Sequence record: NC_021190.1
DNA: 46,150 nucleotides
DNA from: Enterobacteria phage phi80
Reading direction: 5' to 3' (one strand)
In this document: piece after piece, positions 9,001 to 12,000 of the stretch
Layout: the number at the start of each line of letters is the position of its first letter
How positions within the stretch are numbered: the stretch's first letter is position 1
Program-made: the position numbers

Positions 9001-12000
9001 GAGGAAAACATGCCAACACCTAATCCACTCGCTCCTGTAAAAGGTGCCGGTACCACGCTCTGGCTGTACACCGGAACGGGTAACGCTTTCGCCAACCCAC
9101 TCTCTGATATCGACTGGAATCGCCTGGCGAAAATCAAAGAACTCACGCCGGGCGAAATGACCGCAGAATCGTATGACGACACCTACCTCGACGACGAGGA
9201 CGCCGACTGGAACGCGACCGCTCAGGGGGCAAAATCTGCTGGCGACACCTCTTTCACCCTCGCCTGGAAGCCGGGTGAAGAAGGGCAAAAAGACCTGGTC
9301 GCATGGTTTATTGATGGCTCAGTACGCTATTACAAAATCAAATATCCGAATGGTACCGTCGACGTTTTCCGCGGTTGGTGCAGCAGCCTGGGTAAAGCCA
9401 TCCCGGCAAAAGAGGTTATTACCCGCACAGCGAAAATCACCAACACCGGCAAGCCGGAGCTGGCTGAAGAAAGCGGGAGCCCGAATATCCCCGTCACCGG
9501 CGTCACGCTCGATAAAGCCACGGCAAGCGTGGCCGTCGGTGCAACCACAACGCTCAATGTGACGGTTAACCCTGCCAGTGCCTCAGATAAATCCTTCCGC
9601 GTATCGTCAGCTGACCGGGCCAAAGCCACAGTTACGGCTAACGGTAACACACTGACGGTCACCGGCGTGGCGGCAGGCACCGCTGACATTATTGTAATGA
9701 CCAGCGACGGTAATTTCGTTGCGGTCTGCAAAGTCACCGTAACTGCAGCGTAAGGAAGGACGCATGTTTCTGAAAAAAGAGAAGTTCACCTGGCAAACAG
9801 AATCCCTGACCATCTTCGAACTGTCGGCGCTTCAGCGTATTGAGTTCCTGACGTTTATGGCCGCAGAGGAAAGGGCCGTCAGTGCTGACAGCGAGGGCAT
9901 CAGCGATCAGGAAATGACGGCCAGGCTGATTGGCTCAAATATTCGCTGCGGTGCGCGTTTGATCGCGATGTCTTTGTGGCATAACGATCCGGCCGGCACG
10001 GATGTGGAAACGTTATATCAGCAGGTGCTGAGCGGCTGGCCGCCGGAGGCGATCGGTAAAGCAGAAATGGAAATAAAGCTGCTCTCCGGCATGCTCGTTC
10101 CGGTTGATGAAGACAACGCTGCCGATCCAGATGGCTCAACGGAGGCCGAAAGCGCAGAAACCGTTACGGCGGAAAAGCCCTTGCCAGCGAGCTGAAGTTT
10201 GTCCTGAATCTGGCGCGCGAGTTCGGGCGACCCGACTGGCGCGCCATGCTGGCTGGAATGACCTCCAGTGAGCTGGGCGACTGGCACCAGTTCTACCGGG
10301 ATCATTATTTTCAGGACGCGCAGCTCGATGCGCATTTCTCAGAGCTGCTTTATTCCATCTCCACTCTTTTCTTCCGCGATCCGGAACTTACCCCCGCACA
10401 TTTCAGCCTGCTTTCTCCTTCGGATAGCGTCATCAGCGATGATGAGCCGGATGATGACACGCTGATGACCGCCGCCGAGGGGATCACAGGAGGTATCCGA
10501 TATGGCCCAGCAGATTAGCGATCTGGTTATTAAGCTGGATGTTGACCGCGCCACCTTCAGCGAGCAGGTCGCCCGAATCAAAGGGCAACTGACAGGAATG
10601 GCGGATGAGTCTGATAAAGTTCAGGCGCGAATGCAGCGTGCAGCGGACCGTCAGAGCGCGGCATTAAAGAGCGTGGGCGACGCTGGCGCGGCGGCTGCCG
10701 CAGATATGAAAGCCCGACAGTCTGCTGCAACGGAAGGGCTGGCCAAAGACTGGCAGAACGTTTCTAAGTCCGTTGATGAAACTCACCGCCGCGTGACCGA
10801 GCTTAATCAGCGTATGCGGGAAAATGACGGACAGGCCGCAGCGCTTGCCCGCCGTCAGGATGAACTGGCGGCATCCTTTTTCCGCCAGATTGACGGCGTT
10901 CGCCAGCTCAATGGTGAAACGCAGTCGCTTGCGAACGTGCAGGCGCGCTTTCGTGCGGCAAGGGCACAGGGCAATATCACCCAGCAGGATTATCTCGCCC
11001 TGATTTCCCGCACCACGGCCAGGCAAAAAGAGCTGCAGATCATAGAGGAAAAATCGGCCGCCGCGCGTACCCGATTCCTCAGTCAGCTGAAGCAACAGGT
11101 CGCAGAGCAAAAACTCTCCGGTACCGAGTTGCTGCGCATGAAGGCGGCGCAGGTTGGTGCAAGCGATGCGGCTGAGGTCTATATCCGCAAGCTCGAGGCT
11201 GCCAAAGTGGCCACGCACGGTCTGGGCCTGAAAAGTGCCGCAGCGCGGCAGGAACTGGGGATACTGATCGGCGAGGTCATGCGCGGTAACTTCGGTGCAC
11301 TGCGCGGCTCCGGGATCACGCTGGCGAACCGGGCAGGATGGATAGACCAGCTGCTGTCGCTGCGCGGGCTTGGGATCGCCGGCATGGTTGGTGGTATTGC
11401 CGCGGCGGTTTACGGGCTGGGTAAAGCCTGGTATGACGGCAGCAAAGAGTCCGAGGAATTTAACAGGCAGCTGATCCTGACCGGGAATTACGCCGGGAAA
11501 ACGTCCGGACAGCTACAGGCACTGGCGCGCTCACTGGCAGGTAATGGCATCACACAGCATGCTGCTGCAGGTGTGCTGGCGCAGGTTGTCGGAAGTGGTG
11601 CGTTTAGCGGTAATGATGTCAGCATGGTGAGCAATGTTGCTGCCAGGCTGCAGCAGGCAACCGGGCAGGCCGTCGACGAAACCATCAACCAGTTTAAACG
11701 CCTGAAGGATGATCCGGTTAATGCAGTCACAACGCTCAACGATTCGCTGCATTTTCTGACGGCCACGCAGTATGAACAGATTGCCTCTGCTCAGGCGATG
11801 GGAGATACGCAGAAAGCATCAGAGCTTGCCATGCGCGCATATTCTGATGCGGTCATTCAGCGGGCCGGGGCGGTTGAGGAAAATCTTGGCTCCCTCGAAA
11901 AAGCCTGGAACTGGGTGAAGAATGCGGCCTCAGGCGCGTGGGATGCGATGCTGGGCATAGGGCGTAATCCTGACACCGCGATGAAGCGCCAGGACTCTTT

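What the first reader, a model, noticed from the sequence alone, without database searches (positions are those of the whole stretch)
10111..10250. G-T tail chaperone frameshift with a variant slippery heptamer
The -1 frame is open only from about 10111 and G stops at 10193-10195, so the shift must occur within about 80 nt. The only lambda-like site is GGAAAAG (about 10171-10177), where lambda has GGGAAAG; P-site re-pairing would be imperfect. This is a natural variant that may shift at a different efficiency.
Basis: partly seen in the sequence, partly recalled or inferred. Interest (0 to 1): 0.4.

Follow-up and report, generated by a model that had tools for sequence, protein, structure and literature searches.

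The report
Phi80 tail-chaperone G-T frameshift site
This is the programmed -1 ribosomal frameshift site (G_GAA_AAG) that lets phage phi80 make a small amount of a G-T fusion tail-assembly chaperone; it is real and strongly conserved, but it is already annotated in public phi80 records and is the commonest slip motif I found in lambda's G/T gene family, so it is ordinary.

Summary
The window is phage phi80. G is 9764-10195, the -1 frame opens at 10111 after TGA TGA, and GGAAAAG at 10171-10177 lies in phase as G_GAA_AAG. It is the only in-phase motif in the overlap where the A-site tRNA can re-pair.

G and the -1 extension are true homologues of lambda gpG (PF06894) and gpT (PF06223).

Across 346 related loci (161 distinct junctions) the motif is conserved in phase, 35 nt upstream of the conserved T-domain motif, even where the flanks have diverged completely. 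The permitted shift windows intersect to three codons (CTG GAA AAG).

The first heptamer base is G in all 160 G_GNA_AAR junctions, although it is the third base of six different codons. This favours two-tRNA slippage, with tRNA-Glu re-pairing GAA→GGA through a central G·U pair.

It is not novel. GenBank FN582354.1 (phi80) and PQ299149.1 (phage LLS) annotate exactly this heptamer as the -1 slip site. In my query-biased sample G_GAA_AAG (about 127 of 161) outnumbers lambda's G_GGA_AAG (31).

A stable stem-loop starts 6 nt downstream and is shared with lambda. Its pairing is mostly dictated by the encoded peptides, so a stimulator role is unproven.

Shift efficiency is untested.

The parts
9764..10195 (+). 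Gene G (phi80 gene 14), the 143-aa tail assembly chaperone read in the zero frame
   Evidence: ORF. Pfam PF06894 Phage_TAC_2, E = 9e-28. PHROG 42. Annotated 'minor tail protein G' in FN582354.1.
10105..10110 (+). TGA TGA in the -1 frame, which sets the upstream limit of the window where a shift can occur
10171..10177 (+). Slippery heptamer G_GAA_AAG. The P-site codon is GAA (Glu) and the A-site codon is AAG (Lys).
   Evidence: Annotated as 'slippery sequence for -1 translational frameshift' in FN582354.1 and as 'minus-one programmed translational frameshift site GGAAAAG' in PQ299149.1. Conserved in phase across the family.
10193..10195 (+). G stop codon (TGA), the downstream limit of the shift window
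10177..10518 (+). T extension read in the -1 frame after the slip (113 aa plus stop). The fusion CDS is join(9764..10177, 10177..10518) and encodes 251 aa.
   Evidence: Translation. Pfam PF06223 Phage_tail_T, E = 8e-13. PHROG 39. T-frame codon-position entropy is 0.42/0.19/1.19 upstream of its first ATG. Joined CDS gpG-T in FN582354.1.
10184..10192 (+). 5' arm (CCAGCGAGC) of a candidate downstream stem, starting 6 nt after the heptamer. Hypothetical stimulator.
   Evidence: The synonymous-codon null gives weak support.
10211..10246 (+). Inner GC-rich hairpin (UGGCGCGC ... GCGCGCCA plus an extension) enclosed by the candidate stem
   Evidence: It encodes the most conserved T peptide (LAREFGRPDWRA), so conservation alone does not prove an RNA role.
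10248..10256 (+). 3' arm (GCUGGCUGG) of the candidate downstream stem. It encodes M-L-A-G-M in the T frame.
   Evidence: The pair 10186-10254 is A-U in phi80 and G-C in lambda, VT1-Sakai and L096.
9010..9753 (+). Major tail protein V (upstream neighbour)
10502..13639 (+). Tape measure protein H (downstream neighbour). Its start overlaps the end of T by 17 nt.

Best explanation
Ribosomes translating phi80 gene G occasionally slip back one base when GAA (Glu) is in the P site and AAG (Lys) is in the A site of G_GAA_AAG (10171-10177).

tRNA-Lys re-pairs perfectly from AAG to AAA. tRNA-Glu re-pairs from GAA to GGA with two Watson-Crick pairs and a central G.U pair. Translation then continues in the -1 frame from GCC (10177-10179) to 10518. 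The result is a 251-aa G-T fusion (...TAEK|ALASELKF...) alongside the abundant 143-aa G.

By analogy with lambda, many G molecules and a few G-T molecules coat the tape-measure protein. The T domain recruits the major tail protein, and neither protein ends up in the virion.

What is shown here: the anatomy, the homology, the conservation and the constraint on all seven bases. What is inferred: that the fusion is actually made, its ratio to G, and the chaperone mechanism.
For: - The frame geometry leaves an 82-nt window with a single in-phase motif that allows cognate A-site re-pairing.
- G is PF06894 and T is PF06223, the lambda gpG and gpT families. They sit between the major tail and tape-measure genes.
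- The -1 frame has no ATG, GTG or TTG before 10246. Even so, it is conserved as protein (LAREFGRPDWR...) with third-position-biased variability upstream of that ATG.
- 346 loci give 161 distinct junctions. An in-phase G_GAA_AAG is present in about 127, G_GGA_AAG in 31, G_GGA_AAA in 2 and A_AAA_AAG in 1, always 35 nt before the T motif.
- The permitted windows intersect to CTG GAA AAG. In L101 the -1 frame opens 6 nt before the heptamer, and in L100-L102 the stop follows AAG directly.
- The first heptamer base is G in 160 of 160 G_GNA_AAR junctions, although it is the third base of GCG, CCG, TTG, CTG, GTG or ATG. It is A in the single A_AAA_AAG junction. The rough chance of this from phi80 codon usage is about 7e-4. 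This is the signature of P-site re-pairing.
- Lys is AAG in all junctions but two, although AAA makes up 65% of phi80 Lys codons.
- The phi80 and LLS GenBank records annotate this exact site and a joined G-T CDS.
- Literature: A_AAG is the shiftiest tetramer in E. coli (PMC4066793). Non-identical X_XX triplets such as G_GA and IS3's C_CA(A) are known (PMC5009743). GAA to GGA re-pairing by G:U is discussed for phage chaperone sites (PMC10274946).
Against: - I found no direct protein evidence for a phi80 G-T product. The GenBank annotations are themselves inferences.
- The motif fails the strict X_XXY_YYZ rule.
- In reporter assays the A_AAG tetramer alone is barely above background without a stimulator, and even the best canonical V_VVA_AAG heptamers give only about 0.3% (PMC4066793). 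A lambda-like rate of about 3-4% would therefore need help from the sequence context, and that help is not established here.
- My family sample is biased, because three of the four query clades carry GGAAAAG.
Confidence: 0.9

Rival explanations
1. Single-tRNA slippage. Only tRNA-Lys slips on the A_AAG tetramer, either in the A site or in the P site while the next codon CCC waits. The P-site GAA to GGA re-pairing plays no part. The protein product would be identical.
For: - A_AAG is the most shift-prone tetramer in E. coli, and natural sites such as IS1222 G_CGA_AAG use it (PMC5009743; PMC4066793).
- The zero-frame codon after the heptamer is usually a low-usage codon or a stop: CCC 60, TCC 53, TGT 31, TAG 10. 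That would favour slippage while the A site is empty.
Against: - The base before GAA is G in 160 of 160 G_GNA_AAR junctions, across six different preceding codons. It switches to A exactly where the motif is A_AAA_AAG. A tetramer-only mechanism puts no constraint on that base.
- The second base is also always G.
Confidence: 0.12
2. The slip site is assisted by a downstream RNA structure. An outer stem (10184-10192 with 10248-10256) starts 6 nt after the heptamer and encloses a GC-rich hairpin (10211-10246). It would act as a frameshift stimulator shared by phi80-, lambda- and Stx-type phages. This adds to the main explanation rather than replacing it.
For: - The MFE is -42.5 kcal/mol, z = -3.6 against dinucleotide shuffles.
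- The same architecture is predicted for lambda, VT1-Sakai and many relatives, often as a perfect 10-bp outer stem.
- RNAalifold predicts it independently in the subfamily defined by the peptide M-L-A-G-M, at -33.7 kcal/mol.
- 91% of cells are paired, against 23-42% in the slid controls.
- The pair 10186-10254 is A-U, G-C or C-G in 142 of 161 junctions.
- The spacing matches the 5-8 nt typical of stimulators (PMC4066793).
- Native MFEs are lower than synonymous-codon nulls in 11 of 13 stem-bearing representatives, with z from -1.1 to -2.8.
Against: - With the protein sequences fixed, about 8.2 of the 10 outer pairs form anyway. Phi80's own stem is no better than that null: 8 pairs (p = 0.81), and arm duplex -15.0 against -13.4 kcal/mol (p = 0.18).
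- The covariation term is only -0.31, and only one pair shows compensatory change.
- The conservative covariation measures are not significant.
- There is no consensus structure across the whole family. The PhiR47- and Providencia-like clades lack the stem yet keep the heptamer.
- No Rfam family matches.
- From memory, Levin et al. 1993 found no required downstream structure for lambda. I could not access that paper.
Confidence: 0.3
3. No frameshift occurs. T is translated independently from ATG 10246, as RefSeq/PGAP annotates it, and the heptamer is incidental.
For: - PGAP calls 'phage tail assembly protein T' as a separate CDS starting at the position equivalent to 10246.
- The Pfam T-domain match begins after that Met.
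Against: - No Shine-Dalgarno-like sequence precedes 10246 (sequence).
- The -1 frame peptide upstream of that ATG (ELKFVLNLAREFGRPDWRA) is the most conserved part of the region and evolves as coding sequence.
- The heptamer and its phase are invariant across relatives with 33-99% protein identity.
- In lambda the homologous T is known to be made only as G-T (PMC5009743).
Confidence: 0.03
4. The -1 change arises from transcriptional slippage of RNA polymerase on the A run, not from ribosomal slippage.
For: The site contains a short A run (AAAA).
Against: - Four A's is far below the run length usually needed for productive transcriptional slippage (about 7 or more; established knowledge reviewed in PMC5009743).
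- The conserved features are codon-phased (G_GAA_AAG, with AAG rather than AAA), which matches tRNA re-pairing rules.
Confidence: 0.01

Closest known systems
Bacteriophage lambda G / G-T programmed -1 frameshift at G_GGA_AAG (Levin, Hendrix & Casjens 1993; Xu, Hendrix & Duda 2004, 2013, 2014; reviewed in PMC5009743)
   Same: - Homologous proteins (PF06894 and PF06223; about 50% identity by tblastn).
- The same gene order.
- The same position of the slip site: 22 nt before the G stop and 35 nt before the T-domain motif.
- The same A-site codon, AAG.
- The same predicted downstream fold.
   Different: The P-site codon is GAA (Glu) rather than GGA (Gly). The X_XX triplet is therefore G_GA, and the single G.U pair after re-pairing sits at the middle codon position instead of the wobble position. 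Both slipping tRNAs (Glu and Lys) belong to the mnm5s2U34 class.
The phi80 record FN582354.1 (gene 15 'slippery sequence for -1 translational frameshift', CDS gpG-T) and phage LLS PQ299149.1 ('minus-one programmed translational frameshift site GGAAAAG')
   Same: Identical site. Locus positions 2662-2668 map to window 10171-10177, and the sequence is GGAAAAG.
   Different: Nothing. This is the same feature, already annotated by inference.
Hexanucleotide or near-heptamer A_AAG sites: IS3 C_CAA_AAG, IS1222 G_CGA_AAG, B. subtilis cdd A_CGA_AAG (Licznar et al. 2003; PMC5009743; PMC4066793)
   Same: AAG to AAA slippage of tRNA-Lys in the A site, with an NNA P-site codon whose tRNA re-pairs imperfectly. 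IS3's C_CAA to CCA is the direct analogue of G_GAA to GGA.
   Different: - The IS sites depend on a strong downstream pseudoknot or hairpin. Here a stimulator is only a weakly supported candidate.
- The central mismatch is G.U here, which is better than IS3's C.U.
PRFect 'twofour' and 'fivetwo' motif classes in phage tail-assembly-chaperone frameshifts (PMC10274946)
   Same: - GGAAAA fits the two-plus-four pattern.
- The same tRNA-Glu re-pairing, GAA to GGA through G:U, is invoked for GGGGGAA in about a thousand actinophage chaperone genes.
   Different: In those motifs GAA is the downstream (second) codon of the slip pair, and the hosts are actinobacteria. Here GAA is the upstream (P-site) codon and Lys AAG is in the A site.

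Membership tests
Lambda-type tail assembly chaperone G / G-T programmed -1 frameshift | Two overlapping ORFs lying between the major tail protein gene and the tape-measure gene | tested here: met
   V is 9010-9753, G is 9764-10195, the -1 ORF runs to 10518, and H is 10502-13639.
Lambda-type tail assembly chaperone G / G-T programmed -1 frameshift | Sequence homology of the upstream ORF to gpG and of the -1 extension to gpT | tested here: met
   PF06894 at E = 9e-28 and PF06223 at E = 8e-13, both above the Pfam gathering cut-offs. PHROGs 42 and 39.
Lambda-type tail assembly chaperone G / G-T programmed -1 frameshift | The downstream ORF is in the -1 frame, lacks its own start near the overlap, and is conserved as protein from the slip site onward | tested here: met
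   There is no ATG, GTG or TTG in the -1 frame from 10111 to 10245. T-frame codon-position entropy is 0.42/0.19/1.19.
Lambda-type tail assembly chaperone G / G-T programmed -1 frameshift | A conserved slippery sequence in phase within the overlap | tested here: met
   G_GAA_AAG or an interchangeable motif is present in all 161 distinct junctions at a fixed distance from the T motif.
Lambda-type tail assembly chaperone G / G-T programmed -1 frameshift | A G-T fusion protein is made at a low ratio to G and is required for tail assembly | not testable with these tools
   This needs proteomics or genetics. It has been shown only for lambda (PMC5009743, PMC3296357).
Canonical X_XXY_YYZ simultaneous-slippage heptamer | XXX are three identical bases, so the P-site tRNA keeps its first two pairs | tested here: not met
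   XXX is G-G-A. After the slip the middle position is G opposite U.
Canonical X_XXY_YYZ simultaneous-slippage heptamer | YYY are three identical bases, allowing cognate A-site re-pairing | tested here: met
   A_AAG: AAG re-pairs to AAA.
Z_ZZN tetramer / NNA_AAG hexamer -1 sites (IS3 and IS1222 type) | In-phase A_AAG with an NNA P-site codon | tested here: met
   GAA_AAG.
Z_ZZN tetramer / NNA_AAG hexamer -1 sites (IS3 and IS1222 type) | Dependence on a downstream hairpin or pseudoknot starting about 4-10 nt after the motif | tested here: inconclusive
   A stable stem is predicted 6 nt downstream. It is not better than a synonymous-codon null for phi80, and it is absent in some clades.
Z_ZZN tetramer / NNA_AAG hexamer -1 sites (IS3 and IS1222 type) | No constraint on the base 5' of the P-site codon | tested here: not met
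   That base is invariably G (160 of 160) across six different codons. The site therefore behaves as a heptamer.

The most novel reading that the evidence does not exclude
The stem-loop that begins 6 nt after the heptamer (10184-10256) could be a genuine frameshift stimulator shared by phi80, lambda and Stx phages. In that case lambda's textbook 'slippery sequence only' G-T frameshift would have an overlooked RNA element that sets the G:G-T ratio.

A second point follows from the motif itself. In G_GAA_AAG both slipping tRNAs (Glu and Lys) carry mnm5s2U34. Phi80-type phages could therefore be even more sensitive than lambda to the host 2-thiouridine / Fe-S sulfur network that tunes this ratio.
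Probability: 0.2. Interest if true: 0.45.

Novelty: already known. Interest (0 to 1): 0.15.

Why it matters
The G:G-T ratio set by this site is essential for correct tail assembly in lambda-like phages. Knowing the exact site lets annotators write the joined G-T CDS, which RefSeq/PGAP currently does not do for these prophages.

The survey adds one small point of general interest. In the lambda gpG/gpT family the non-canonical G_GAA_AAG, not lambda's G_GGA_AAG, is the usual motif in my sample, and all seven of its bases are under selection. Searches restricted to strict X_XXY_YYZ motifs (as in PMC4066793) would therefore miss most members of this family.

None of this changes what is already understood about the mechanism.

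Tried and rejected
- Literature search for 'GGAAAAG' plus 'frameshift' returned only unrelated human-genetics papers.
- The primary papers are not held in the library: Licznar 2003, Xu 2004, Xu 2013 and the Rotman 2012 phi80/Lula genome paper. Levin 1993 is also unavailable. Statements about them are from memory or from reviews.
- PMC11364771 (Tai tail-assembly interference, which uses phi80 heavily) does not mention gpG, gpGT or frameshifting.
- An upstream Shine-Dalgarno-like stimulator of the dnaX or IS911 type: none lies within 6-17 nt of the heptamer. The only GGAGG is at 10140-10144, about 26 nt upstream. Rejected.
- Other slip sites in the overlap: no other in-phase heptamer has identical bases at positions 4-6. 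Rejected.
- Rfam scan of 9900-10600: only sub-threshold chance hits.
- Family-wide consensus RNA structure: RNAalifold finds none across all clades.
- Transcriptional slippage: the A4 run is too short. Rejected.
- L044's odd frames come from indels upstream of an intact heptamer. This is a degraded or mis-assembled copy, not a natural in-frame G-T fusion.
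Full report
**What the window is.** The window is the genome of phage phi80 or a near-identical isolate. Bases 9010-10520 match GenBank FN582354.1 (Enterobacteria phage phi80, 5' end) at 99.7%. The first 23 kb are colinear with that record. The G-T region is 100% identical to a prophage in E. coli XL10-Gold.

**Checking the observation.**
- Gene G runs 9764-10195 (143 aa) and stops at TGA 10193-10195.
- The -1 frame is closed by TGA TGA at 10105-10110. It is open from 10111 to TAG 10516-10518.
- GGAAAAG lies at 10171-10177 and is phased GCG GAA AAG, that is G_GAA_AAG.
- Of the in-phase heptamers in the 82-nt overlap, it is the only one whose positions 4-6 are identical, so it is the only place where an A-site tRNA can re-pair cognately after a -1 slip.

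The heptamer as a bare string is not enriched in the genome: 10 copies against 7.3 +/- 3 expected. Significance therefore has to come from phase, position and conservation.

**What the genes are.** A conceptual fusion made by re-reading base 10177 gives a 251-aa protein.
- Residues 1-122 match Pfam PF06894, the lambda tail assembly chaperone G family (E = 9e-28).
- Residues 167-244 match PF06223, minor tail protein T (E = 8e-13). Both scores are well above the curated cut-offs. PHROGs agrees.
- The pair sits between the major tail protein (9010-9753) and the 1045-aa tape-measure protein (10502-13639).
- The -1 frame contains no ATG, GTG or TTG between 10111 and 10245.
- The peptide encoded there (ELKFVLNLAREFGRPDWRA) is nevertheless the most conserved part of the region. 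Across diverse relatives, variability by T-frame codon position is 0.42/0.19/1.19 bits, a clear coding signature upstream of the first possible start. Translation must therefore enter this frame from G.

**Comparative evidence for the site.** I collected 346 loci encoding relatives of the fusion.
- Phi80-like loci came from viral contigs and from bacterial genomes (Enterobacter, Citrobacter, Pluralibacter, Trabulsiella, Kosakonia, Klebsiella, Providencia and others).
- Further loci came from the lambda-, PhiR47_1- and Providencia-phage-like clades.

These give 161 distinct junction sequences.
- In every one, an in-phase slip motif lies exactly 35 nt upstream of the conserved T motif (A/S)R(E/D)..R.DW(R/K).M.
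- The motif is G_GAA_AAG in about 127 junctions, G_GGA_AAG in 31 (the lambda clade), G_GGA_AAA in 2 and A_AAA_AAG in 1 (VT1-Sakai).
- The flanks diverge completely in relatives with 33-43% protein identity, while the seven bases stay.
- The permitted windows shrink to 13-28 nt in some relatives. In L101 the -1 frame opens 6 nt before the heptamer, and in L100-L102 the G stop follows AAG directly. The intersection of all windows is the three codons CTG GAA AAG.

This pins the shift to the heptamer about as firmly as sequence data can.

**Mechanism: one tRNA or two?** The product is the same whether only tRNA-Lys slips (the A_AAG tetramer) or both tRNAs slip together. The data favour both.
- The first base of the heptamer is the third base of the preceding codon, which varies: GCG, CCG, TTG, CTG, GTG and ATG, encoding five amino acids. 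Yet that base is G in all 160 G_GNA_AAR junctions.
- It is A in the one junction where the motif is A_AAA_AAG.
- Using phi80's own codon usage, the product of the G-ending fractions for the five free codon types is about 7e-4. This is a rough figure that assumes independence.
- Lys is AAG in all but two junctions, although AAA makes up 65% of phi80 Lys codons. Glu is always GAA.

All seven positions are therefore constrained, as expected if tRNA-Glu (anticodon 3'-CUU-5') re-pairs from GAA to GGA (C:G, U.G, U:A) while tRNA-Lys re-pairs from AAG to AAA. Lambda's GGA to GGG also leaves one G.U pair, at the wobble position, so phi80's motif moves the G.U pair rather than adding a mismatch. The anticodon identities are established knowledge and were not tested here.

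**Is it known?** Yes.
- FN582354.1 carries a misc_feature 'slippery sequence for -1 translational frameshift' at record positions 10194-10200, which map exactly to window 10171-10177. It also carries a joined CDS 'gpG-T'.
- Phage LLS (PQ299149.1) annotates 'minus-one programmed translational frameshift site GGAAAAG' at the homologous place.
- The mechanism class is documented. A_AAG is the most shift-prone tetramer in E. coli, and V_VVA_AAG are the best heptamers (PMC4066793).
- Intermediates with non-identical X_XX are listed in the Atkins et al. review, including G_GA in several eukaryotic viruses and C_CA(A) in IS3. IS1222 uses G_CGA_AAG (PMC5009743).
- PRFect defines a 'twofour' motif class and discusses tRNA-Glu re-pairing from GAA to GGA by G:U in phage chaperone frameshifts (PMC10274946).
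- RefSeq/PGAP, in contrast, annotates T as a free-standing ORF from the internal ATG with no slippage join.

**A candidate downstream stimulator.**
- The 93 nt after the heptamer fold to -42.5 kcal/mol, z = -3.6 against dinucleotide shuffles.
- The fold has an outer stem (CCAGCGAGC at 10184-10192 with GCUGGCUGG at 10248-10256, containing one G.G mismatch) that starts 6 nt after the heptamer. It encloses a GC-rich hairpin at 10211-10246.
- Lambda, VT1-Sakai and many other relatives predict the same architecture, often with a perfect 10-bp outer stem.
- In the subfamily defined independently of pairing, by the peptide M-L-A-G-M, RNAalifold predicts it unaided at -33.7 kcal/mol. There, 91% of cells pair, against 23-42% when the partners are slid.
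- The pair 10186-10254 is A-U, G-C or C-G in 142 of 161 junctions.

The support is thin once coding constraints are considered.
- With the T protein and the dual-coded 5' arm held fixed and downstream codons resampled, about 8.2 of the 10 outer pairs form anyway.
- Phi80's stem is no better than that null: 8 pairs (p = 0.81), and arm duplex -15.0 against -13.4 kcal/mol (p = 0.18). Its overall MFE is only marginally low (z = -1.9, p = 0.03).
- The covariation term is -0.31, and only one pair shows compensatory change, in two or three lineages.
- The conservative covariation measures are not significant.
- There is no consensus structure across the whole family.
- The PhiR47- and Providencia-like clades lack the stem yet keep the heptamer. 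In those clades the G stop lies 1-4 nt after it.

I rate a stimulator role at about 0.3.

One indirect argument in its favour comes from reporter data. The best canonical heptamers give only about 0.3% without stimulators, and a favourable 3' context raises that to at most about 3.7% (PMC4066793). Lambda's native rate is about 3-4% (PMC3296357, PMC5009743). Some contextual help is therefore likely in this family.

**tRNA modification.** Maynard et al. showed that the 2-thiouridine pathway, which modifies tRNA-Lys, tRNA-Glu and tRNA-Gln, restrains lambda G-T frameshifting and so affects phage yield (PMC3296357). At G_GAA_AAG both slipping tRNAs belong to that set. Greater sensitivity of phi80-type phages is a reasonable but untested inference.

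**Verdict.** The feature is the already-annotated phi80 G-T slip site, and the 'variant' is the usual motif of the family in my query-biased sample. Whether its efficiency differs from lambda's cannot be determined computationally. Interest is low.

Noticed in passing
window 10184-10256: A stable predicted stem-loop begins 6 nt after the slip site: an outer stem (10184-10192 with 10248-10256) around a GC hairpin (10211-10246). Lambda and the Stx phages predict the same fold. Most of the pairing is forced by the encoded peptides, so a role as a frameshift stimulator is possible but unproven.
   Followed up: yes
L100, L101, L102, L107, L269-L277 (Providencia-type prophages and phages), junction region: In these distant relatives the G stop codon (TAG) directly follows the heptamer (G_GAA_AAG_TAG or G_GGA_AAA_TAG), and the downstream stem is absent. 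A stop in the A site may replace the structure as the pausing signal.
   Followed up: partly
L348 (E. coli XL10-Gold NZ_CP081008.1, 100% identical to window 9764-10518): RefSeq/PGAP annotates 'phage tail assembly protein T' as a separate CDS starting at the internal ATG (window 10246), with no ribosomal-slippage join. The conserved 23 residues upstream of that Met are left unannotated. This probably affects E. coli prophages systematically.
   Followed up: partly
L086 (DAINBV010000046.1, 44,556-bp contig): A contig the size of a complete phi80-like phage, with a G-T protein 91% identical, is labelled as a Geobacteraceae MAG. This is almost certainly a mis-binned enterobacterial phage contig.
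   Followed up: no
window 7196-7648 (ORF of 150 aa; phi80 gene 9, FI-like): The protein contains a short tandem peptide repeat (DSTDSTDSTDS) inside an acidic, low-complexity stretch.
   Followed up: no
window 10178-10180 and the homologous codon in relatives: The zero-frame codon right after the heptamer is nearly always a low-usage codon or a stop: CCC 60, TCC 53, TGT 31 and TAG 10 of 161. This fits slow A-site decoding helping the slip. It could equally reflect constraints from the overlapping T frame (GCC, GTC, GTG, GTA).
   Followed up: partly
L044 (IMGVR_UViG_2734481909_000001) 1860-1910: This copy keeps GGAAAAG but has indels about 25-40 nt upstream that break the G frame. It is either a decaying prophage or an assembly error.
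   Followed up: partly
PMC3296357, main text: The body text of Maynard et al. 2012 prints lambda's slippery sequence as 'GGGTTTG' and calls TTG and TTT lysine codons. Their Table 1 gives the correct GGGAAAG. This looks like a complement or typographical slip, and anyone text-mining slip sites should be aware of it.
   Followed up: no
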